DNA from: an uncultured Bdellovibrionales bacterium
GTDB taxonomy: Bacteria > Patescibacteriota > Minisyncoccia > Moranbacterales > UBA9337
NCBI GenBank assembly: GCA_964605525.1
Contig: CAZSCV010000001.1
Coordinates: forward strand, 172,645-236,644
Length of the DNA stretch: 64,000 nucleotides
Reading direction: 5' to 3'
Shown here: positions 988-62,138 of the stretch, piece by piece
How positions within the stretch are numbered: position 1 is the stretch's first letter
Layout of the letters: every line of letters begins with the position of its first letter
Notes under the pieces: generated by a model
Database searches by the model: none
Told to the model about the DNA's origin: nothing
Seen by the model: the letters and a program-made list of their open reading frames with translations, nothing else
Position numbers and translations under genes: made by a program

Positions 988-989
988 TT

Positions 990-1069
990 TTTGTTTTGGA
1001 TTTTGAGCATAGAAGTTGGGGGTGCTTGCCTGCCTTTGGAGGGAATGCCCAAAATCAAAAACTCCTTAG
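990..1069. repeat. interspersed repeat family R1, copy A (overlaps RhuM stop codon)
   Basis: Left part ttggattttgagcatagaagttggggg resembles copy C (5238..5299). The 26-nt core 1043..1068 gaatgcccaaaatcaaaaactcctta matches copy B at 25/26. Confidence 0.6.
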
Positions 1070-2088
1070 TTTTCTCCAGTCGGTAAAGATTTCACAAACT
1101 TATCAAAATCAGATTCTATCGCTTGTGTTTTGTTATATTCATCATATTCTTGAAATGCTTTTTGCTCCGCTTGAGCGTGAGAAATTGAACCTTTTCCTTC
1201 AAGCACATCGTATTTATTGAATTCCAAGAAGTTATTTACGGACTCTGCCAGTTTTTCCATCGTGAGAGAGGTGTGATTTTCAATCAATCTTTCAATATAG
1301 TCAAAATAGCCGACGATACCTCTTTCTAGCTTCTTTATTTTATCTTCATTAAGATAATTTTTGGCGATAACTGTGTCTGATTTAAGAATCCTGCCTTTTG
1401 GAGAATTTTTCCAAGTTTTCAGTCCCATGAAAGGTTTTTGCTTGTCTGCTGTTTCATAAATAATCTCAGCTGCGGTTTTGCCGGTAATGGCAAAATGGAA
1501 TTTATTTTGAATTATCGCGTAAAAATTTTTAGCAATCTCGGATGCGGGACTATAATCCATGCTGCATTCAGCAAAAATATCCGTGATTTGCTGGTAAATT
1601 TTTCTTTCACTGGCGCGAATTGAACGGACTCTTTCTAGGAGTTCAAGGAAGTAATCTTTGTCAAAATATTTTCCGTTCTTTAGTCTATCATCATCCATTG
1701 TAAAGCCTTTGATGATATACTCCTTGAGTCTTTCTGTCGCCCAAATACGGAACTGAGTGGCCTCAGCTGAGTTTACTCGATAACCAACGGAAATTATGGC
1801 GTCAAGATTGTAGAATTTTGTTTGGTATTTTTTTCCGTCATTGGCAGTATATTCCAAAATGGAATGAACTGAATTTTCTAGTAGTTCGCCACTTTCAAAA
1901 ATATTCTTCAAATGTTTGGCGATAGCTGGCTGTTGCACGCCAAATAGTCTGGCCATCTTATTTTGATTCAGCCAAATATTTTCGTCATGAAAGTAAATTT
2001 CCACTTTTACTTTGCCACTTGGAGCTGTATAAAGTAAAAATTCTGTCAGCTCATCTTTTATGCTAATTTTATGATTGTTTTTGGGCAT
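1066..2088 (-). CDS. RhuM-family virulence/DNA-binding protein
   Basis: 340 aa; conserved RhuM blocks: EIYFHDENIWLNQNKMARLFGVQ, ISVGYRVNSAEATQFRIWATERLKEYIIKGFTMDDDRLKNG, ERVRSIRASERKIYQQITDI. Confidence 0.8.
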   Translation of the reverse strand: MPKNNHKISIKDELTEFLLYTAPSGKVKVEIYFHDENIWLNQNKMARLFGVQQPAIAKHLKNIFESGELLENSVHSILEYTANDGKKYQTKFYNLDAIISVGYRVNSAEATQFRIWATERLKEYIIKGFTMDDDRLKNGKYFDKDYFLELLERVRSIRASERKIYQQITDIFAECSMDYSPASEIAKNFYAIIQNKFHFAITGKTAAEIIYETADKQKPFMGLKTWKNSPKGRILKSDTVIAKNYLNEDKIKKLERGIVGYFDYIERLIENHTSLTMEKLAESVNNFLEFNKYDVLEGKGSISHAQAEQKAFQEYDEYNKTQAIESDFDKFVKSLPTGEN

Positions 2089-2146
2089 GAATTTTGTATT
2101 TTAGTTGAATGAAGCTTGTCTTTATTTTACTATATATGGAGCCTAA

Positions 2147-2176
2147 GGTGAATGCCTAAAATCAAAAACTCCTTAT
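2147..2176. repeat. interspersed repeat family R1, copy B
   Basis: ggtgaatgcctaaaatcaaaaactccttat; near-identical to the copy A core; lies just upstream of the RhuM start, so the gene is bracketed by direct repeats. Confidence 0.6.
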
Positions 2177-2397
2177 TGCTTGTAATTTCCGGATTGGTCA
2201 AAGTTCCGCGTAAATGAGTCTCTCCTTCGCAAATCCGCGCACGATATGAAAATATAGAATGATTTTCCTTATTATTAGTGCCCTTTTGAAATTTTTTCCG
2301 CTTTAAGCCCCGTCCTTGACAAATGCTAAATTTTTGCTAAACTACTTTGAACACTAATCTTGGTGTTAAATTGCTCTTACAATTAAGGAGGCTGAAA

Positions 2398-2730
2398 ATG
2401 GCTACAGAACCGAAAAAAGAGGTGTATATTCAATTATGGCAATATCGCTCATCTGCGCTACCTTCGGAATATGGTTTTTCTCTGCATTTTTTAAAAAAAG
2501 ATTGGGAAGCGTTTGTCAAAAATTTTTGGGTGAACAAGCCTGACGATGCCCCAGCAACCTATGAGTGTCAATTTGGTCGACCGTTTCTTTGTGAGATCGA
2601 TCAGGAAATGTTTATGAGAGTAAAAAAAGAAGAAAGTATAAGATTGTACAAAGATTTTCCAGTCGGAATCCCAAAAAACTTTTTAAACCCTGACGCGTGG
2701 GCAAAAACTAAATATTCATGCCCGGAATAA
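2398..2730 (+). CDS. hypothetical protein
   Basis: 110 aa from ATG with RBS aaggagg 8 nt upstream; no recognisable motif; lies between repeat R1 copy B and R2 copy a. Confidence 0.4.
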   Translation: MATEPKKEVYIQLWQYRSSALPSEYGFSLHFLKKDWEAFVKNFWVNKPDDAPATYECQFGRPFLCEIDQEMFMRVKKEESIRLYKDFPVGIPKNFLNPDAWAKTKYSCPE

Positions 2731-2763
2731 ACATACCATCTATCATTCACTCACTAAGCTTTA

Positions 2764-2800
2764 CCCCTCGCGGAATTTAATTCCACTTGGGGCTTTTTTA
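2764..2800 (+). terminator. putative Rho-independent terminator
   Basis: cccctcgcggaatttaattccacttgggg imperfect hairpin followed by ctttttt. Confidence 0.35.
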
Positions 2801-2858
2801 AAAAAATTTCAAAAGGACTATCTAAATAAATATATTTTTGAACAAAATTTCGGACAAC

Positions 2859-2879
2859 GTGCGGCGGACATGAGAAGTT
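2859..2879. repeat. interspersed repeat family R2, copy a (partial)
   Basis: gtgcggcggacatgagaagtt; matches the 5' part of copy b at 4475..4495. Confidence 0.5.
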
Positions 2880-2941
2880 GCAACCGAAGGGAACAATTTG
2901 AGTGGAGAAGTCCGCAAGACTTCGTAACCTCATATCCCTTG

Positions 2942-4327
2942 TTATATTCCCCGAGGGGCTGAAATTGCAAGCTTATTCTTTAATCTAAAAACTTTATCAT
3001 AGAAAATAATCATTACAATTCCTAAAGGTGATGTGATTACAAACGTATTTTCCTTTAAAAAAGGATACGACGCAAGCAACAAAATAGTTGGGATTAAAAT
3101 TGAATAAAAGCTTGCATCAGCCGAAGTCTTTTTAGAGTAAATTCCCGCAATAATTGGAGGTACAAAAATTAAAGCCATATATGTTACAAATAAAGACAAA
3201 GTTATGATATTAGGGATTAAAAAAGCAATTAAAAACCCACCAATTCCAAATATAGCGGTTATAAGCCTAGCATAAAAAATTTCTTTTTTTGAATCAAATT
3301 GATTTTTCTTAAATATCCCTCTGTAAATAATAGTTGAACCTCCAACAAGCAGGCTATCGATTGAAGACATAATAACTGCCAAAATTGAAGCGAAGCCAAT
3401 ACCCACAAGATACGGCGGGAGAATTTTATCCATAAGTAAAAATATCGCTGATTCTTGTTTTATTCCTGAAAGCAAAACAGAGGAAAGTAAGCCTAGGAAC
3501 AAAACTATGAAACCAAGAAGAATTACAAAAGGAATAGACCAGAAAAATGAATTTCTTGCAACTTTTTGGTTTTCAGCTGAAAAAATTCTCTGCCAGTGGG
3601 TTGTATTCCCCAAATATAAAAACCCGCTTAAAATTATTACTCCTATCATCCAACCTATTCCACCGAAACCAAATGGATTGAGATGTCCCTCCGGAACGCT
3701 AGATAAAAGATTTGAGAGACCGCCAACTTCACTATATCCAACAAAAGCAAGGATTAAAAAAACGATCAGAATTATCCAAAACTGAATAAAATCCGTAATT
3801 ATATCTATTTTTAAACCTCCAATTGAGGTATATAAAATAACAACTAATGCAGATAAAATTAAAGCAATCTCATATTCTACACCAACTAAAACAGCAGCCA
3901 AGGATGTAATTGCCACTGCTTGAACCCCAATCCAGATGATTAATAAAAAGATTTGTAAAATACCAGTTAAAATTCTATTTTTGGTATCAAATCTTTTTGC
4001 AAAAAAATCAACAATCGTGTGTGCGTCATATTCATCACCGATAGCTTTTATTTTTTTAGCCATTATTCCAAGAATTAACATTCCTGCAACAAAAGAGATT
4101 GGCAGTGCTAAGCCATAAGAAATGCCCGAGTTATATACTTCTGAAACTACCGCAACCGTTGCACCAGCTCCGACAACGGTCGCAACAGTGGAAAAAGTCA
4201 TAAGCCATAAGCTTGTTTTTTTGTTATTCAAAAAGTATGCACTCAAAGATTCTTTTCTTGAAAAATACCAAGCAATACCAAACATTAATGCAAGATAGAT
4301 GAATAAAATAATTAGTGTTGTATTCAT
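2942..4327 (-). CDS. sodium:solute symporter family transporter
   Basis: 461 aa; about 13 TM; N-terminal region YFLNNKKTSLWLMTFSTVATVVGAGATV typical of SSF (PutP/PanF-like). Confidence 0.7.
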   Translation of the reverse strand: MNTTLIILFIYLALMFGIAWYFSRKESLSAYFLNNKKTSLWLMTFSTVATVVGAGATVAVVSEVYNSGISYGLALPISFVAGMLILGIMAKKIKAIGDEYDAHTIVDFFAKRFDTKNRILTGILQIFLLIIWIGVQAVAITSLAAVLVGVEYEIALILSALVVILYTSIGGLKIDIITDFIQFWIILIVFLILAFVGYSEVGGLSNLLSSVPEGHLNPFGFGGIGWMIGVIILSGFLYLGNTTHWQRIFSAENQKVARNSFFWSIPFVILLGFIVLFLGLLSSVLLSGIKQESAIFLLMDKILPPYLVGIGFASILAVIMSSIDSLLVGGSTIIYRGIFKKNQFDSKKEIFYARLITAIFGIGGFLIAFLIPNIITLSLFVTYMALIFVPPIIAGIYSKKTSADASFYSILIPTILLLASYPFLKENTFVITSPLGIVMIIFYDKVFRLKNKLAISAPRGI

Positions 4328-4464
4328 ATTATAAAGTTAAAGAATAAATATCCTTATTAAGTTTTCTAAAACCCGCGCCCTATTCATTACGTCTTTTGTG
4401 ATAGCAAGGACAGAATGTGCAAAACACCAAGGTGGCAATTCAAAATATCAATTTTCACGACGAT

Positions 4465-4547
4465 TGAATATAATGTGCGGCGGACATGCGAAGTTTTTGT
4501 CCGCTTCCTTAATTATATATAAATAGAAGAAAAGGGCAAAAATTTGG
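4465..4547. repeat. interspersed repeat family R2, copy b (full length, contains hairpin gcggaca-N11-tgtccgc)
   Basis: gaatataatgtgcggcggacatgcgaagtttttgtccgcttccttaattatatataaatagaagaaaagggcaaaaatttg; about 62 nt near-identical to copy c. Confidence 0.65.
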
Positions 4548-4637
4548 GAGAGATCTTTCGGAAAAGACCGAACCACATATGCCTTATTATCAAATATATT
4601 GCTCTTTTGCCATCCTAATTACAATGCTTTTAGAGGA

Positions 4638-4671
4638 GTGTGAGGCGAAGATTGATATCTTCACCTCACAC
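4638..4671. other. 13-bp stem hairpin (one mismatch) immediately 3' of the 86-aa minus-strand ORF
   Basis: gtgtgaggcgaag-attgatat-cttcacctcacac; no clear U-tract. Confidence 0.4.
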
Positions 4672-4683
4672 ACGTATGCCAGG

Positions 4684-4944
4684 TTATATGATTTCGCAAT
4701 CATCTTCCTGAAAAAAGAGCAACGGATGGCGCGGTATAAACACATCTCTAATCCAAAATTCTGCTGCACTTCCTTTTTCAAATTCAAATAGATGTTCCAC
4801 CATATCAGACATTCTTACAGCGTAGTGGCCACATCGTATAGGTCGTTCAATAATTGGAAGTACTTTGCCCACTAACATTTCTCGTAAACAGTACGGCTCC
4901 TCGTTTTGTTCAGGCGGAGTGCGTAAAACTTTGATTAAAGTCAT
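4684..4944 (-). CDS. hypothetical small protein (86 aa) in a repeat-flanked cassette
   Basis: Strong RBS (aggagg, 8-nt spacer) before the ATG at 4944; no recognisable family; flanked by R2 copies b and c. Confidence 0.45.
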   Translation of the reverse strand: MTLIKVLRTPPEQNEEPYCLREMLVGKVLPIIERPIRCGHYAVRMSDMVEHLFEFEKGSAAEFWIRDVFIPRHPLLFFQEDDCEII

Positions 4945-5035
4945 TGTGTCTACCTCCTATTTATTTAAGATTAATTGGAACCCCTATAAAAGCATTATAT
5001 AAAATGTGTAAAAGAGCAATATTTCCGACGTATCC

Positions 5036-5100
5036 GAATATGAGAAGTTTTTGTCCGCTTCCCTATTATATATCAATAGAAGAAAAGGGCAAAAATTTGT
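5036..5100. repeat. interspersed repeat family R2, copy c
   Basis: gaatatgagaagtttttgtccgcttccctattatatatcaatagaagaaaagggcaaaaatttg; lacks the 5' hairpin arm present in copy b. Confidence 0.65.
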
Positions 5101-5237
5101 GTTGAGTCCCGATATTCCTTATTTATTTTTAAAAGTGAAATCGGGATGAACCTCATATCCGGTGTTGGACGATGTAAATTTATTTTCTTTTTTTATTTTT
5201 TAAATTTGCTTTTATTCTAAATAGATCAAATAAGTTT

Positions 5238-5299
5238 TTTTGTTTTGGATTTTGGGCAGAGGGGTCAGGGGTGAATGACCTTTCCCCGAAACTCCTTAT
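5238..5299. repeat. interspersed repeat family R1, copy C
   Basis: tttgttttggattttgggcagaggggtcaggggtgaatgacctttccccgaaactcctta; shares both ends with copies A and B; lies 15 nt from the OLD-gene stop. Confidence 0.55.
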
Positions 5300-5314
5300 A
5301 ATATTAAAGTATGA

Positions 5315-7021
5315 TTACTTCAGTAGACTGTCTAATGCTTCAGAATAATTAGAAGCAATATTGTAATTGTATCTTTTAACTTTTTGCCAAAAAAGATACT
5401 TTACATCATCGTTATTTTTTATTAAGTCTTTGGCCTCTGCTTCAGATGAAATATTTTTTCTTCTTATACATCTTTCAACGCTAGCAAGTTTGGTTGGAAG
5501 AGAGTTTTTTGGAACCCAGGTTCTTGTATTGTAAATATCCGAGATGCATTCCTCGAGATGGTTTTCAAATTCAGAAAATAGATTTTCTGCAGAAAAGTTT
5601 TCTGGTAGAAAAATTAAAAAAACGTTCTTGGTGTCCTTAACTTTATATCTTTCAAATCCGATTTTTGACTTATCGAGTGTATTGTGTTCATAAAATCTAG
5701 AGACTTCATTCTTTCCTTTATCACTGTCTATTATAAAAAATATTTTGTTATTGATAACAAAAGGTGCCGATTGAAAAACGGCAATAAATTTCGATATTTC
5801 CGTAATGCCATTTAAGCCTTTCGTAACATTTATACCAGTATCAATAAATTTTTCAATTGTCCCTGTTTTTTCATCTTCTACAAAAATCAAAGGCTCATTT
5901 TTAGCTGCTAAGAAATAGGCGAAGAAATTTGGGTCACCCATTATTTTACCGATTTCTTTGATTTCGTCATCGGTGAATTGTGAGGTTTGCTTATTTAGAC
6001 TAGATCCAAGAATATTCCAAATAATTTTTTCTTCTGCTATTCTGCTGCCTGCTAATAGCACAGGAGAATGTGTTGATATGATCATTTGAATATTGTTAAG
6101 CCATTTTTCAGAGTTTAATTGTTTGGCTAAATTTGCCAACAAGTCAACATGTAGGAATGATTCTGGCTCCTCCAACAACCAGAGAGGGTGGTATTCTCCT
6201 CTGTGCAAGGTTCGATCGCTGTCAAGTAAGAAGTGTGTAAGATAAAGTATCGTAGATTGTGCACCAGTGCCTTGTGATGTTAATTCAATTTCTGGCGCAC
6301 CCTTGTAGCCAGAAAAATTTATATCAGAAATAGTTATAATATCCCTGATGCTTTTGGGCAAGTTAATAGAAATGCTGCTATCTGGCCACATTTTTTGGAG
6401 ATTTTCAGTTAAGGCACCGGAAAGATAGCTTTTTGACTTTTTTCTTAATTCTTCCCATTCATCTTGCAATTTTTTTATACTCTGGGTAATATTCGATCCT
6501 CTGCCCCAATTTGCCAATAAACGCTGACGTAATTTTTCTTGAGCATTTATTAATAAAGATTGTCCCTCTTGAGGATGTAAATATGTCACTTTAAAACTTT
6601 TTAAAATCTTCAAGATAGCGTCAGGAAAATTTCCTTTTAAAATATCACCATTTATTCTGTATGATGTGGTGACAATTTTTGTGTCGGTGGCGACAGAAAA
6701 ATATTTAATAATTGTTAATTTGTCACCGTACTCTTTAATTAATTCCTGTTTGAATTTTGGAGTGGTTAATTCTTCTAGATCAAATGTTAGGGCTATTTCA
6801 GCGATGTTAGACTCTTTCTTTTTGCTTAAAAACGATGTTTTGTTAATGATATTTCCATCAGATAAAACAGAGTCATCAAAAAAGGCATTTATGGCATATA
6901 ACACGGTGCTTTTTCCAGAATTATTTACACCAACAAAATATGATCCCTCACCTAGATTGAATGATACTTTTTCGCGAAATGTTTTAAAGTTTTTAATGGA
7001 TATTTTGTTGATCAGTGGCAT
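5315..7021 (-). CDS. OLD-family ATP-dependent endonuclease (ABC ATPase + TOPRIM), class-1-like
   Basis: 568 aa; Walker A GVNNSGKST; Walker B/D-loop LLEEPESFLH; H-loop ISTHSPVLL; C-terminal TOPRIM acidic motifs FVEDEK and FIIDSDKG. Confidence 0.75.
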   Translation of the reverse strand: MPLINKISIKNFKTFREKVSFNLGEGSYFVGVNNSGKSTVLYAINAFFDDSVLSDGNIINKTSFLSKKKESNIAEIALTFDLEELTTPKFKQELIKEYGDKLTIIKYFSVATDTKIVTTSYRINGDILKGNFPDAILKILKSFKVTYLHPQEGQSLLINAQEKLRQRLLANWGRGSNITQSIKKLQDEWEELRKKSKSYLSGALTENLQKMWPDSSISINLPKSIRDIITISDINFSGYKGAPEIELTSQGTGAQSTILYLTHFLLDSDRTLHRGEYHPLWLLEEPESFLHVDLLANLAKQLNSEKWLNNIQMIISTHSPVLLAGSRIAEEKIIWNILGSSLNKQTSQFTDDEIKEIGKIMGDPNFFAYFLAAKNEPLIFVEDEKTGTIEKFIDTGINVTKGLNGITEISKFIAVFQSAPFVINNKIFFIIDSDKGKNEVSRFYEHNTLDKSKIGFERYKVKDTKNVFLIFLPENFSAENLFSEFENHLEECISDIYNTRTWVPKNSLPTKLASVERCIRRKNISSEAEAKDLIKNNDDVKYLFWQKVKRYNYNIASNYSEALDSLLK

Positions 7022-7286
7022 AAAAAATATTTAAATCGTTTTCGCAGCGATAGCGGAGAAAACACCTTATTCCCCCTCATTAATTAATAAAAAAACAAAA
7101 TCGAATTCTTTTTAAGAGTTGGGCGAAGCCCAAAAGAAAATATGTATTTCATAACTCGTTATTATGCGAAACTCTAGTTTTTTTTGCGTGTTTTTTGTTT
7201 ATGTAAAAAGTATAGCATATATTCATTTTCGTGTAATCTGGCGGATATTTTCATACTTTTCGGCGTCGTGATGTTGGTTTTTGGTT

Positions 7287-12233: not shown

Positions 12234-12451
12234 AATCTTTTCTCCTTATGTTTTGTTGTAAAAGAATAAGTTAAGATAAGATTTTATCTTAACGACTTAC
12301 TATATATCAAAATAAAAAAAATATCAATGATTATGCCAATATCGCTTTTTTGTATTTTGATAAATTGGCAATATTCCGCTCATATATTGACTTTTCGGTG
12401 ATTATTTGCTATGCTAAAAACGATGACATAAGTGTTGACAAAAATAATAAT

Positions 12452-13180
12452 ATGTTTGAAAAAGAACTTGAAAAAGCGGGACTGACCGATAAAGAAGCCA
12501 AGGTGTATTTGGCGGTTTTGGAATTGGGAGAGGCTAATATTGCCAGAATTGCGAAAAAATCCAAGGTAAAAAGAGCCACTGTTTATTTGGCCGTGGAATC
12601 TTTAAAAGAAAAAGGATTGATTAGCGCGGCTAAAAGGGAAAATAAGATTTATTACTATGCCGAAGACCCGAGGGTGATTCAGAAACAACTTGAAGAAAAA
12701 AAAGAATCAATTTCCAAAATCATGCCGGATCTTCTGGCCTCTTTTGCTTTTTTGGATAAAAAGCCAAGTATCCGATATTTCGAAGGAAAAAATGGAATCA
12801 AGCAGGTTTTCGAAGATATGCTTAATTATCCGAATCGAGAGATTTTAGCGATGTTTACCGAGCAGCACTTAGATTTCGGAGATAATTTTTTTTACGAATA
12901 TTTCATTCCGGAGCGCAAAAAAAGAAAAATTTGGGTGCGCTCTATTTTTCCCGATAATGTTCAAATGAGAGATTTTCAAAAAAATGACCCTAATCATCTT
13001 CGGCAATCAAAATTAATTTCCAGCAATAAGTTTACTTTAAAAACTGAAATAGTTATTTATGGTAAAAATAAAATTGGAATCTTGTCTTTTAATGAGGAGT
13101 TGGGTCTTATAATCGAAAGCCAAGACATACACGATTCGCTCAAGGGAATTTTTGAGGTGATGTGGGATGGATTGGGGTAA
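12452..13180 (+). CDS. TrmB-family transcriptional regulator
   Basis: N-terminal wHTH LTDKEAKVYLAVLELGEANIARIAKKSKVKRATVYLAVESLKEKGLI; internal ATG 12452 chosen over ORF-track start. Confidence 0.7.
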   Translation: MFEKELEKAGLTDKEAKVYLAVLELGEANIARIAKKSKVKRATVYLAVESLKEKGLISAAKRENKIYYYAEDPRVIQKQLEEKKESISKIMPDLLASFAFLDKKPSIRYFEGKNGIKQVFEDMLNYPNREILAMFTEQHLDFGDNFFYEYFIPERKKRKIWVRSIFPDNVQMRDFQKNDPNHLRQSKLISSNKFTLKTEIVIYGKNKIGILSFNEELGLIIESQDIHDSLKGIFEVMWDGLG

Positions 13181-13216: not shown

Positions 13217-13969
13217 TTATTTGAGCAAGCTCCAAATCAGATCGAATTTGTTTTTTTCGCTGTTGGCGATTTCTTCGCTTTCAATTTTGACAGCCATCAA
13301 TTCTTTTTTGGAGGTGAAAATAGCGACGGTGTTTTGGTATATCAAAACATGCGTCGAGTCGGTGTAATTTTCCGGCAGGAATTTTATTTCCCGCAGTTCT
13401 TGATTATTTTTCTCGGATGTAAAAATAGTTGAAGGAAAAAATTCCGTAATTTCTTTTTTGAAATATAGCGCTTTAATTTGAATATTATTTTTTATTCTTT
13501 CTGGCATGTAATGATCATGGTCATATTCTTGCCCGACTATTTCGTAAATTTTTTGGAGCGATCCAATACTTCTGACAACTGAGCCGGGTTTTTTCAGGGA
13601 TTCATTGGCGATTGCAATGTATCCTTCTTTTCCTTCATAAACAGTTACTTTTGGGTTGAATTGGGATTTCTTTTGAATAGCTTTCAATTCCGGAATAATT
13701 TCATTTATTTCAGATAATTTCTTTTTGGCTTGTTCCGCCAAAAGCGAAGGAGAAGAGGCGACAAAGCGCATTCCGTCGGGCAATTTGAAGTTACCCATTA
13801 AGCCTTTTTCGGATAAGTTTTTGGCGATAAGATAGGCTGAACTTCTTTTGATGCCGGCATCTTTGGCGATTCTTGCCAGAGGCGCTTCACCTAATTTCAA
13901 ACCAGCCAAATACAACCGCGTTTCTTCATCGCTAAGGCCATAATTTTTCAAAACCTGATTAGTATTCAT
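13217..13969 (-). CDS. TrmB-family transcriptional regulator (paralogue, convergent)
   Basis: N-terminal LSDEETRLYLAGLKLGEAPLARIAKDAGIKRSSAYLIAKNLSEKGLM. Confidence 0.7.
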   Translation of the reverse strand: MNTNQVLKNYGLSDEETRLYLAGLKLGEAPLARIAKDAGIKRSSAYLIAKNLSEKGLMGNFKLPDGMRFVASSPSLLAEQAKKKLSEINEIIPELKAIQKKSQFNPKVTVYEGKEGYIAIANESLKKPGSVVRSIGSLQKIYEIVGQEYDHDHYMPERIKNNIQIKALYFKKEITEFFPSTIFTSEKNNQELREIKFLPENYTDSTHVLIYQNTVAIFTSKKELMAVKIESEEIANSEKNKFDLIWSLLK

Positions 13970-33779: not shown

Positions 33780-33877
33780 TTTTTAGCTTTTTAGAAATTA
33801 ACTTTCTTAGCTTATTAGTTTATAGAACTGAAAGCCTAAAAAGCTGCAGCCTATAATAATCCAATTGCTAATTTACG

Positions 33878-34285
33878 TGGAGCTGATGGGAATTGCACCC
33901 ATGTCCAGAGTTGATTTTAAAAAATATTCTACAAGTTTATCTTGTTTATTTCCGCCCGAAGGCGGTACGGACTTTCGGCTGGAAAACAAACAAAACACCG
34001 AGAGCCCGTCTTTGAGAATTTTGCCGAAAACAACCAAAGATAATTGTTGCCGGCTATCCTAATGGTTGGCACCAAGATCTATTTATTAGGAATCAATAGC
34101 TTGATGGCTATCGGCCTATATTAGGCAATAGCGGAAGCAAAAGCGAAATTTCTTGCGAAAGTTGCTTTTACCTTTGATATAAAGTTTGCACTTAAATATC
34201 TTCCATAAACATTTTTACGACGTGTATTATGAATGGTCGACTTGCTTATTTTTTAAAGTGCAATCTGTCGAAGCTAAGCAGCCCC
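33878..34285 (-). ncRNA. ssrA: tmRNA (ssrA)
   Basis: 5' GGGGCUGCUUAGCUUCGACAG. 3' tRNA-like end with T-arm AUGGG-UGCAAUU-CCCAU. Acceptor GGGGCUG/CAGCUCC with a G3:U wobble, discriminator A, CCA not encoded. Ala-rich tag frame GCA ACU UUC GCA AGA AAU UUC GCU UUU GCU UCC GCU AUU GCC UAA at 34165..34121. Adjacent to smpB. Confidence 0.8.
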
Positions 34286-62053: not shown

Positions 62054-62138
62054 TGGTGCCGATGGAGAGACTCGAACTCTCATGAGCAAGCCCACACGAT
62101 TTTGAGTCGTGCGTGTATACCAATTCCACCACATCGGC
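62054..62138 (-). tRNA. tRNA-Leu (anticodon CAA)
   Basis: Acceptor GCCGATG/CATCGGC; 3-bp D-stem; anticodon loop CUCAAAA; long variable arm; T-arm GAGAG-UUCGAGU-CUCUC; CCA encoded. Confidence 0.85.

What the first reader, a model, noticed from the sequence alone, without database searches (positions are those of the whole stretch)
5315..7021. Stand-alone class-1-like OLD-family ATPase/TOPRIM nuclease without a helicase partner
The 568-aa product has a complete ABC-ATPase N-terminal half and a TOPRIM C-terminal half, the hallmark of OLD (overcoming lysogenisation defect)-family nucleases; Gabija GajA and PARIS AriA/AriB are related architectures. No UvrD-like helicase (GajB) or separate DUF4435 gene is adjacent, so it is either a single-gene class-1 OLD or works with the neighbouring small ORF. 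Defence genes are rarely reported in genomes of this small, AT-rich type, and this one sits in a repeat-bounded cassette.
Basis: partly seen in the sequence, partly recalled or inferred. Interest (0 to 1): 0.6.

Follow-up and report, generated by a model that had tools for sequence, protein, structure and literature searches.

The report
Stand-alone OLD-type ATPase-nuclease gene
This gene in a tiny candidate-phyla-radiation bacterium encodes a single-protein ATP-driven nuclease of the OLD type, most likely an anti-phage weapon; it belongs to a rare, untested branch of a known family, so it is a sound but fairly ordinary finding.

Summary
The ORF is real: 5315..7021, minus strand, 568 aa. Its N-terminal 335 residues are an OLD/SMC-type ABC ATPase, and every catalytic motif is conserved. 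The C-terminal 233 residues hit no Pfam model, but they fold as a TOPRIM domain. E382-D383, D432-x-D434, E479 and K541 are 99-100% conserved in 143 homologues, and E484 is 97%.

No helicase, DUF4435, reverse-transcriptase or other partner gene recurs in 32 family loci. A copy with 94% protein identity (89% nucleotide) lies in an unrelated neighbourhood, and the homology ends about 21 nt before the start and about 48 nt after the stop. By the published context-based scheme this makes it a class 1 (single-gene) OLD nuclease.

- The TOPRIM is divergent. It is closest to the retron Eco2 (type I-C) Toprim, an RNase, and not to the GajA or P2 Old Toprims.
- The "repeat-bounded cassette" is not supported. 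The real repeats flank the neighbouring 86-aa ORF and the RhuM gene.
- The 86-aa ORF is not a partner.

The family is rare (about 30 of 185,579 species genomes) and spread patchily across phyla. Defence is inferred, not shown. Interest is moderate to low.

The parts
5315..7021 (-). Complete gene for the 568-aa ATPase-TOPRIM protein, stop codon included
   Evidence: ORF list. The same gene is called on public contigs L089 and L090. There are 243 homologues, most of them full-length at about 570 aa.
6017..7021 (-). ABC (OLD/SMC-type) ATPase domain, residues 1-335
   Evidence: Pfam AAA_15, AAA_21 and SMC_N. PADLOC Old, AriA and GajA. PDB profile hits to GajA at 8e-12 and T. scotoductus OLD at 4.5e-10.
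6908..6931 (-). Walker A / P-loop GVNNSGKS (K37)
   Evidence: Translation. K37 is conserved in 143 of 143 homologues. It aligns with the T. scotoductus OLD P-loop.
6566..6583 (-). Q-loop region YLHPQE (H149-P150-Q151)
   Evidence: 100% conserved in 143 homologues. The assignment as Q-loop is inferred from its position relative to T. scotoductus OLD H140 (PMC7049728).
6272..6574 (-). Helical insertion in the ATPase (residues about 150-250), the probable dimerisation domain. It contains the invariant RLLANWGR motif.
   Evidence: The AlphaFold model has long helices at 150-170 and 176-211 with lower pLDDT. By analogy with the dimerisation insert of T. scotoductus OLD and GajA (PMC10568477). The dimerisation role is inferred.
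6254..6277 (-). Signature-like motif SQGTGAQS
   Evidence: Q250 95%, G251 99%, G253 100% and Q255 100% conserved.
6149..6181 (-). Walker B, catalytic Glu and D-loop: WLLEEPESFLH (E284, E285, E287, H291)
   Evidence: 99-100% conserved. It aligns residue for residue with T. scotoductus OLD IIEEPEMYLH, so E276 corresponds to E284 and H283 to H291 (PMC7049728).
6062..6076 (-). H-loop STHSP (H318)
   Evidence: H318 is 100% conserved. It aligns with T. scotoductus OLD H310.
5912..5941 (-). Family-specific invariant motif MGDPNFFAYF, just before the first TOPRIM strand. Its role is unknown.
   Evidence: G362, D363 and F370 are 100% conserved, and N365 and F366 are 99%.
5318..6016 (-). C-terminal region, residues 336-568: a divergent TOPRIM core followed by a helical bundle
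   Evidence: No Pfam hit. Model pLDDT is 90.3. Foldseek finds retron Eco2 at E 6e-4 with probability 0.99, then DnaG, T7 primase and the RNase M5 Toprim. PADLOC RT-Toprim_I-C hits 7 of 22 domains.
5873..5878 (-). TOPRIM glutamate E382 with D383, at the end of the first strand
   Evidence: 143 of 143 conserved. The position at the strand end comes from the model's secondary structure.
5714..5728 (-). TOPRIM DxD motif DSDKG (D432, D434, G436), at the end of the third strand
   Evidence: D432 100%, D434 99% and G436 96% conserved. Strand position.
5570..5587 (-). Second acidic cluster ENLFSE (E479, E484), probably ligands of the second metal
   Evidence: E479 100% and E484 97% conserved. The role is inferred from S478/E480 of T. 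scotoductus OLD (PMC7049728).
5387..5407 (-). DVKYLFW motif in the C-terminal helical bundle, with invariant K541. K541 is a candidate transition-state lysine.
   Evidence: K541, F544 and W545 are 100% conserved. The role is inferred from K562 of B. pseudomallei OLD and R487 of T. scotoductus OLD (PMC7049728).
5267..7042 (-). Extent of nucleotide homology with the 94%-identical (protein) copy in an unrelated context (L001). This is the single-gene mobile or conserved unit.
   Evidence: blastn gives 89.4% identity over 1,777 nt and nothing beyond. The neighbours differ completely.

Best explanation
The gene encodes a self-contained class 1 OLD-family enzyme. An ABC ATPase carrying a helical dimerisation insert is fused to a two-metal TOPRIM nuclease.

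The most likely role is single-gene anti-phage or anti-mobile-element defence by abortive infection. In this model the protein sits as an inactive dimer or higher oligomer. A phage-induced cue changes the ATP-bound state of the ATPase heads. That change licenses the TOPRIM site (E382/D383, D432/D434, E479/E484, K541) to cut nucleic acid, which halts the infected cell or the invader.

The substrate is not determined. Two options remain open:
- DNA nicking or degradation, as in V. cholerae OLD, T. scotoductus OLD and GajA.
- tRNA or other RNA cleavage, as in retron Eco2, AriB and, as recently reported, P2 Old.
The closest relatives of this particular TOPRIM domain point slightly towards RNA.

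Shown here: domain architecture, conservation of the catalytic residues, the absence of a partner gene, and patchy horizontal distribution.
Inferred: defence role, oligomeric state, trigger, substrate and the abortive-infection outcome.
For: - ATPase identity and intact catalytic residues.
- Full-length fold matches to GajA (E 3.7e-19, about 610 columns), the retron Eco8 OLD nuclease and T. scotoductus OLD 6p74 (E 7e-13).
- hhalign against P2 Old: 96.7% probability over 465 columns.
- TOPRIM fold of the isolated C-terminal domain. RT-Toprim_I-C profile hits.
- TOPRIM acidic residues and K541 are 97-100% conserved across 143 proteins sharing 34-94% identity with the window protein.
- PADLOC GajA model PDLC00067 aligns residues 3-497 and the fused AriAB model aligns 282-435. 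Both run through the TOPRIM motifs.
- No recurrent neighbour in 32 loci.
- The copy with 94% protein identity (89% nucleotide) in a different context shares only the gene itself.
- Nearest neighbours elsewhere include type I, type III and type IIG restriction-modification genes, MADS genes, transposases, a Schlafen-type helicase and RhuM.
- The family is patchily distributed. It occurs in Patescibacteria, Margulisbacteria, Verrucomicrobia including Akkermansia, Bacteroidota, Planctomycetes, Spirochaetes, Proteobacteria and one archaeon.
- From the literature: class 1 is defined as a single-gene OLD (PMC10568477, PMC7049728). Class 1 OLDs defend by abortive infection (PMC12392090). The Eco2 TOPRIM is a tRNA-preferring RNase (PMC12916289). 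P2 Old is reported to cleave a host tRNA (PMC13261556).
Against: - No experiment exists for any member of this clade.
- In the window the gene is flanked by housekeeping-type genes (YifB, a sodium:solute symporter), not a dense defence island. Several homologues also sit among housekeeping genes.
- The C-terminal domain has no significant sequence match to the P2 Old C-terminus (0.5%), to Pfam TOPRIM models or to any PDB chain. The nuclease assignment therefore depends on predicted structure and motif logic.
- The domain-only fold match to GajA's own Toprim is weak (rank 20, E 0.6).
- Not all OLD-family proteins are defence proteins. Archaeal Cran1 acts in the cell cycle (PMC12796447).
- The Toprim domain of E. 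coli YbjD is dispensable for its phenotype (PMC13261556).
- No close homologue was found in 50,697 phage records.
Confidence: 0.7

Rival explanations
1. It is a fused PARIS-like (AriA-AriB) system. An ABC ATPase sensor is covalently joined to a tRNA-cleaving Toprim effector and is triggered by a phage anti-restriction protein.
For: - PADLOC AriA models score 8e-21 and 7e-17. The fused AriAB model aligns residues 282-435 across the ATPase-Toprim junction.
- Fused AriAB forms exist as a PADLOC model.
- The nearest Toprim relatives are RNases (PMC12916289).
- Neighbours are often restriction-modification genes, which would fit an anti-restriction-sensing logic.
Against: - The C-terminal domain gives no DUF4435 or AriB hit in Pfam or PADLOC for any of 22 members.
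- AriA structures match only weakly: E 0.08 over residues 281-357.
- AriB does not appear among the top 50 fold matches.
- The best PADLOC model is Old, and GajA models outnumber AriA models.
- No stand-alone version of this Toprim exists among 1.84 billion representatives. PARIS is typically a two-gene system.
Confidence: 0.1
2. It is an accessory module of restriction-modification or other defence loci, not an autonomous system. It would work as an ATP-dependent nuclease together with whichever restriction-modification system is nearby. The copy here would then be an orphan with reduced or no function.
For: - In L003 and L004 a 68%-identical member sits between a 708-aa N6/N4 methyltransferase and an 895-aa ResIII protein, with gaps of only 5 and 13 nt.
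- Another member lies beside a methyltransferase plus a MutH-like pair.
- ResIII (3 of 115 neighbours) and type I restriction-modification genes (2 of 115) occur among the nearest neighbours.
Against: - The association is not conserved. No neighbour family recurs in more than 4 of 32 loci.
- Many members, including the closest one, are surrounded by housekeeping genes.
- All catalytic residues are intact in the window copy, and the ORF is uninterrupted.
Confidence: 0.1
3. It is a housekeeping DNA-repair or chromosome-maintenance ATPase-nuclease (RecF/SbcC/Rad50-like, or Cran1-like) and has nothing to do with defence.
For: - The ATPase belongs to the SMC/Rad50/RecF branch.
- In this window the flanking genes are ordinary cellular genes.
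- An OLD-family ATPase with a cell-cycle role is known in archaea (PMC12796447).
Against: - The family is extremely sparse: about 30 full-length members among 185,579 species genomes, and 66 representatives among 1.84 billion proteins.
- There is no conserved synteny.
- Near-identical copies occur in unrelated contexts.
- Distribution across distant phyla is not what a core repair function would show.
- RecF, Rad50 and SMC NCBIfam scores are far below their cut-offs.
Confidence: 0.07

Closest known systems
Class 1 OLD-family nucleases (P2 Old, Thermus scotoductus OLD PDB 6P74, Vibrio cholerae OLD, E. coli YbjD/OldB)
   Same: - Single gene of 500-600 aa with an N-terminal ABC ATPase, a helical insert and a C-terminal Toprim.
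- The ATPase catalytic residues line up with T. scotoductus OLD: K34/E276/H283/H310 correspond to K37/E284/H291/H318 (PMC7049728).
- hhalign against P2 Old gives 96.7% probability.
- The full-length fold matches 6P74 at E 7e-13.
   Different: - The C-terminal domain is not recognisably similar in sequence to the P2 Old C-terminus and fails Pfam TOPRIM models.
- It carries about 40 extra C-terminal residues forming a helical bundle with an invariant lysine (K541). This is more like the class 2 arrangement than the loop arginine of T. scotoductus OLD.
- The Q-loop has a canonical glutamine (Q151) beside H149, whereas T. scotoductus OLD uses H140.
- The match to YbjD is weak (35% probability).
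Gabija GajA (class 2 OLD; PDB 8SM3, 8U7I)
   Same: - Best full-length structural match: E 3.7e-19, about 610 aligned columns, TM about 0.46.
- Best PDB profile hit at 8e-12.
- PADLOC GajA model PDLC00067 aligns residues 3-497.
   Different: - No GajB (UvrD-like helicase) next to the gene in the window or in 32 family loci.
- Sequence identity is only about 18%.
- The isolated C-terminal domain matches the GajA Toprim poorly (rank 20, E 0.6).
Toprim effector domain of retron Eco2/Ec67 (type I-C RT-Toprim; PDB 9I2F, 9S1F)
   Same: - Closest structural relative of the isolated C-terminal domain: E 6e-4, probability 0.99.
- The only profile family that repeatedly hits the C-terminal domains: PADLOC RT-Toprim_I-C, 7 of 22 members, best E 3e-6, covering the DxD core.
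- Both have a glutamate plus DxD active site (Eco2: E374/D378/D460/D462; PMC12916289).
   Different: - Here the Toprim is fused to an ABC ATPase and not to a reverse transcriptase.
- No RT gene or retron ncRNA is nearby.
- The acidic pair is adjacent (E382-D383) and not E-x3-D.
- Similarity is too low for the family profile to retrieve any RT-Toprim protein from 1.84 billion representatives.
PARIS (AriA ABC ATPase + AriB DUF4435 Toprim; class 4 OLD)
   Same: - ABC ATPase plus Toprim logic.
- PADLOC AriA and AriAB models hit the protein.
   Different: - One polypeptide with no DUF4435 signature.
- Structural and sequence matches to AriA are marginal.

Membership tests
OLD family (any class) | N-terminal ABC-type ATPase domain with Walker A, Walker B/catalytic Glu and H-loop | tested here: met
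   Pfam AAA_15 and AAA_21 score above their cut-offs. The best PADLOC hit is Old. The motifs align with T. scotoductus OLD and are 99-100% conserved.
OLD family (any class) | C-terminal Toprim domain with conserved acidic metal-binding residues | tested here: met
   Met by predicted fold and residue conservation. The evidence is fold matches to TOPRIM proteins, RT-Toprim profile hits, and E382, D383, D432, D434, E479 and E484 at 97-100% conservation. Not met at the level of Pfam TOPRIM models or sequence similarity to the P2 Old C-terminus. The literature says such degeneracy is usual between OLD classes (PMC7049728).
OLD family (any class) | Metal-dependent nuclease activity | not testable with these tools
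   Needs purified protein.
Class 1 OLD | Single gene with no conserved partner (no UvrD-like helicase, no retron RT/ncRNA, no separate Toprim gene) | tested here: met
   Window neighbours are an 86-aa ORF, an SSF transporter and YifB. Clustering of 471 neighbour proteins from 32 loci found no recurrent family. Homology with L001 ends at the gene borders.
Class 1 OLD | Length about 500-600 aa (the cut-off used in PMC12392090) | tested here: met
   The protein is 568 aa. Full-length homologues are 564-613 aa, and most are about 570 aa.
Class 1 OLD | Anti-phage (abortive infection) phenotype | not testable with these tools
   Only P2 Old, V. cholerae OLD and YbjD have been tested (PMC12392090, PMC13261556). 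No member of this clade has been.
Gabija (class 2 OLD, GajA) | Adjacent gajB gene (UvrD/PcrA/Rep-like helicase) | tested here: not met
   No such gene in the window flanks. None recurs among the 115 nearest neighbours of 31 other family loci.
Retron-associated OLD (class 3) | Adjacent retron reverse transcriptase and ncRNA | tested here: not met
   No RT ORF is adjacent. Rfam finds only a tmRNA and one tRNA in the 64 kb.
PARIS (class 4; AriA/AriB or fused AriAB) | Toprim effector of the DUF4435/AriB type | tested here: not met
   No DUF4435 or AriB hit for any of 22 C-terminal domains in Pfam or PADLOC. AriB is absent from the top 50 fold matches.
Retron type I-C RT-Toprim (Eco2-like) | Reverse transcriptase domain fused N-terminally to the Toprim | tested here: not met
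   The N-terminal half is an ABC ATPase, not an RT. Only the Toprim domain resembles Eco2.

The most novel reading that the evidence does not exclude
This compact clade is a distinct subclass of single-gene OLD enzymes. Its ATPase would gate an Eco2-type TOPRIM RNase, making it a one-protein, tRNA- or RNA-cleaving abortive-infection system. It would be a significant part of phage defence in CPR/Patescibacteria, organisms that largely lack CRISPR.
Probability: 0.2. Interest if true: 0.55.

Novelty: new member of a known kind. Interest (0 to 1): 0.33.

Why it matters
Single-gene (class 1) OLD nucleases are the least understood OLD class. Only P2 Old, V. cholerae OLD and YbjD have been tested, and their substrates and ATP dependence differ.

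This clade is compact and very well conserved, with a clear set of invariant residues to mutate. Its TOPRIM is closest to a known RNase, so it could help settle whether class 1 OLDs act on DNA or on tRNA.

It also adds a plausible non-CRISPR, non-restriction defence gene to the repertoire of CPR bacteria, whose means of phage resistance are poorly known (PMC6509639). None of this is surprising to a specialist. IMG already labels close homologues 'predicted ATP-dependent endonuclease of OLD family'.

Tried and rejected
- Pfam, NCBIfam and PHROGs on the C-terminal half gave no informative hit.
- A profile (hmmsearch) of the C-terminal domain against all PDB sequences found nothing at E<=10.
- hhalign of the C-terminal profile against the P2 Old C-terminus gave 0.5% probability. 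Sequence alone cannot establish the TOPRIM.
- Foldseek of the C-terminal model against viral predicted structures (BFVD) found nothing meaningful.
- tblastn against 50,697 phage records found only two weak ATPase-only hits in Rhizobium phages. There is no sign that the family is phage-borne.
- The 86-aa ORF (4684..4944) as a partner was rejected. It occurs only in window-identical contigs and has no Pfam or PHROGs hit.
- 'Repeat-bounded cassette' around the OLD gene was rejected.
- An integron-like array of cassettes was considered because of the repeated intergenic elements. It was not pursued, because no integrase is nearby and the repeats look like duplicated promoter or 3'-flank elements.
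- YbjD/DUF2813 membership was considered. The Pfam DUF2813 hit is below its cut-off and hhalign gives only 35% over the N-terminus.
- A literature search for OLD-type or other defence systems in CPR/Patescibacteria found nothing specific.
Full report
**Observation**

An uninterrupted ORF of 568 codons occupies 5315..7021 on the minus strand. The same gene is called on public metagenome contigs that contain exactly this sequence. A YifB orthologue sharing at least 90% identity is labelled Candidatus Moranbacteria, so the window comes from a CPR/Patescibacteria genome.

**N-terminal half**

Residues 1-335 are an ABC ATPase of the OLD/SMC branch.
- Pfam AAA_15 (3.6e-20) and AAA_21 (9.4e-17) pass their cut-offs.
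- In PADLOC the best model is Old (5.4e-25), followed by AriA, NsnB and many GajA models.
- NCBIfam gives only sub-threshold hits: MADS3, the retron Eco8 effector, PtuA, Rad50 and RecF.
- A family profile finds GajA (8e-12) and the class 1 OLD of Thermus scotoductus (4.5e-10) in the PDB.
- The pairwise alignment with T. scotoductus OLD puts its experimentally essential residues onto this protein. K34, E276, H283 and H310 correspond to K37, E284, H291 and H318 (PMC7049728).
- These residues and the HPQ Q-loop are 99-100% conserved in 143 full-length homologues.

**C-terminal half**

Residues 336-568 have no Pfam hit even at E<=10. They have no PDB hit by profile. They show no significant similarity to the C-terminus of P2 Old. 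Four independent lines nevertheless support a TOPRIM nuclease.
- AlphaFold models are confident: 86.6 for the full length and 90.3 for the domain alone. The full-length model aligns over about 600 columns with GajA (E 3.7e-19), the retron Eco8 OLD nuclease and T. scotoductus OLD.
- The isolated domain retrieves TOPRIM-containing structures. These are retron Eco2/Ec67 (E 6e-4, probability 0.99), then DnaG, T7 primase and the RNase M5 Toprim.
- The only profile that repeatedly hits the C-terminal domains of family members is PADLOC RT-Toprim_I-C. It hits 7 of 22 members with a best E of 3e-6, over the core that holds the DxD motif.
- The expected catalytic pattern sits where a TOPRIM has it. E382-D383 ends the first strand and D432-x-D434 ends the third. 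A second acidic pair (E479/E484) and an invariant lysine (K541) follow in the C-terminal helical bundle. All are 97-100% conserved across proteins that share as little as 34% identity with the window protein.

It is therefore not met.

**Partner genes**

In the window the neighbours are an 86-aa ORF, a sodium:solute symporter and YifB.
- I clustered 471 neighbour proteins from 32 family loci. No family recurs in more than four loci, and those four lie at scattered distances.
- The 86-aa ORF is found only in window-identical contigs.
- The closest homologue (94% protein identity) lies between Rrf2/YkuD/NifU genes and MazG/YdjC/NUDIX genes.
- Nucleotide homology with the window (89.4%) covers 7042..5267 and nothing else. 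That is the gene plus about 21 nt upstream and about 48 nt downstream.

So the unit of inheritance is the single gene. By the published, context-based classification this is class 1 (PMC10568477, PMC7049728, PMC12392090).

**Context and distribution**

The nearest neighbours of family members are a mixture.
- Defence and mobile genes include type I restriction-modification genes, a type IIG MmeI-like enzyme, a C5 methylase, MADS genes, rve transposases, a Schlafen-type helicase and RhuM.
- Housekeeping genes include tRNA synthetases, DNA polymerase A, GatB and TIM.
- One member sits between a Mod-like methyltransferase and a ResIII protein with gaps of 5 and 13 nt.

RhuM lies within about 4 kb of a family member in four loci, including this window and a Niabella genome.

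The family is rare. There are about 30 full-length members in one-genome-per-species GTDB, which holds 185,579 species. The C-terminal profile retrieves only 66 representatives out of 1.84 billion. All of them have the same architecture or are truncated calls that begin inside the ATPase.

It is nevertheless scattered over many phyla and one archaeon. Rarity, patchiness and context-independence fit a horizontally moving defence gene. They do not fit a core repair function.

**Mechanism**

The committed model is a self-contained OLD enzyme. It would dimerise through the helical insert at about residues 150-250, which is inferred from the model and from T. scotoductus OLD and GajA. ATP binding or hydrolysis at the ABC heads would control a two-metal TOPRIM nuclease. 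Activation during infection would cause abortive infection, as shown for P2 Old and V. cholerae OLD (PMC12392090).

The substrate is open. T. scotoductus OLD, V. cholerae OLD, GajA and Eco8 OLD act on DNA. Eco2's TOPRIM nicks tRNA acceptor stems (PMC12916289), AriB cuts tRNA, and P2 Old is now reported to cleave a host tRNA (PMC13261556). This domain's nearest relatives are the Eco2-type Toprims, so RNA is a live possibility. I put it at roughly one in three given a nuclease function.

**Repeats**

- A 65-nt repeat (4481-4546 and 5035-5099, 87-97% identical) carries a promoter-like TTGCCC-16-TATAAT on the minus strand. It precedes the 86-aa ORF and the symporter.
- A 26-nt direct repeat flanks RhuM (1043-1068 and 2150-2175).
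- A 37-nt element lies 42 nt after the stop codons of both RhuM and the OLD gene (988-1024 and 5237-5273).

These repeats suggest that the 1-5.3 kb block next to the gene has been shaped by duplication or insertion. RhuM itself is evidently mobile among CPR lineages.

**Verdict**

The gene is a new, uncharacterised member of a known kind. It has a moderately interesting twist, a divergent Eco2-like TOPRIM that occurs only in this architecture. Automated annotation already calls close homologues OLD-family endonucleases. Interest is 0.33.

Noticed in passing
window 1066-2088 (-), repeats 1043-1068 and 2150-2175: A RhuM-family gene (Pfam 1e-101) is flanked by 26-nt direct repeats that are 96% identical. 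Its 90%-identity protein cluster has 61 members named from Moranbacteria, Shapirobacteria and Parcubacteria, so it is recently mobile among CPR lineages. RhuM also lies within about 4 kb of OLD-family members in L006 (Niabella, directly adjacent), L035 and L014.
   Followed up: partly
window 988-1024 and 5237-5273: A 37-nt element (84% identical) lies exactly 42 nt downstream of the stop codons of both the RhuM gene and the OLD gene on the minus strand. An inverted partial copy (1046-1062) makes a hairpin-capable pair between lspA and RhuM. Its function is unknown; it could be a terminator or an insertion scar.
   Followed up: partly
window 4481-4546 and 5035-5099 (partial third copy 2856-2879): A duplicated 65-nt intergenic element carries a promoter-like TTGCCC-16-TATAAT on the minus strand. 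It lies upstream of the 86-aa ORF and of the sodium:solute symporter. It was not found elsewhere in the 64 kb.
   Followed up: partly
window 4684-4944 (-) and 2347-2730 (+): Two small ORFs (86 and 127 aa) have no Pfam or PHROGs hit and occur only in window-identical contigs among the loci fetched. Whether they are real genes is unresolved.
   Followed up: partly
L003 3869-10417 (also L004): A 68%-identical family member is wedged between a 708-aa N6/N4 DNA methyltransferase and an 895-aa ResIII protein, with gaps of 5 and 13 nt. The region carries many small ORFs and a Prim-Pol gene. It may be a type III-like restriction-modification operon that has captured the OLD gene on a mobile element.
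   Followed up: no
window residues 147-152, 167-174, 361-370, 539-545 of the protein (DNA 6566-6583, 6500-6523, 5912-5941, 5387-5407): Four family-specific motifs are invariant or nearly so: Y-x-HPQEG, RLLxNWGR, MGDxNFxxYF and DVKxxFW. Apart from the Q-loop glutamine, they have no counterpart described in other OLD proteins. Their roles are unexplained.
   Followed up: no
window 33875-34285 (-): A tmRNA gene (Rfam RF00023, 121 bits). ARAGORN did not report it, although it did report the tRNA-Leu at 62054-62138.
   Followed up: no
window 12350-13180 (+) and 13217-13969 (-): Two convergent TrmB-family regulator genes sit next to each other.
   Followed up: no
window 2001-6000 versus the rest: GC skew is slightly negative only in the 2-6 kb block of minus-strand genes (symporter, 86-aa ORF and the 3' part of the OLD gene). 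It is positive (+0.04 to +0.33) everywhere else, where genes mostly run on the plus strand. The block is therefore oriented against the prevailing direction.
   Followed up: no
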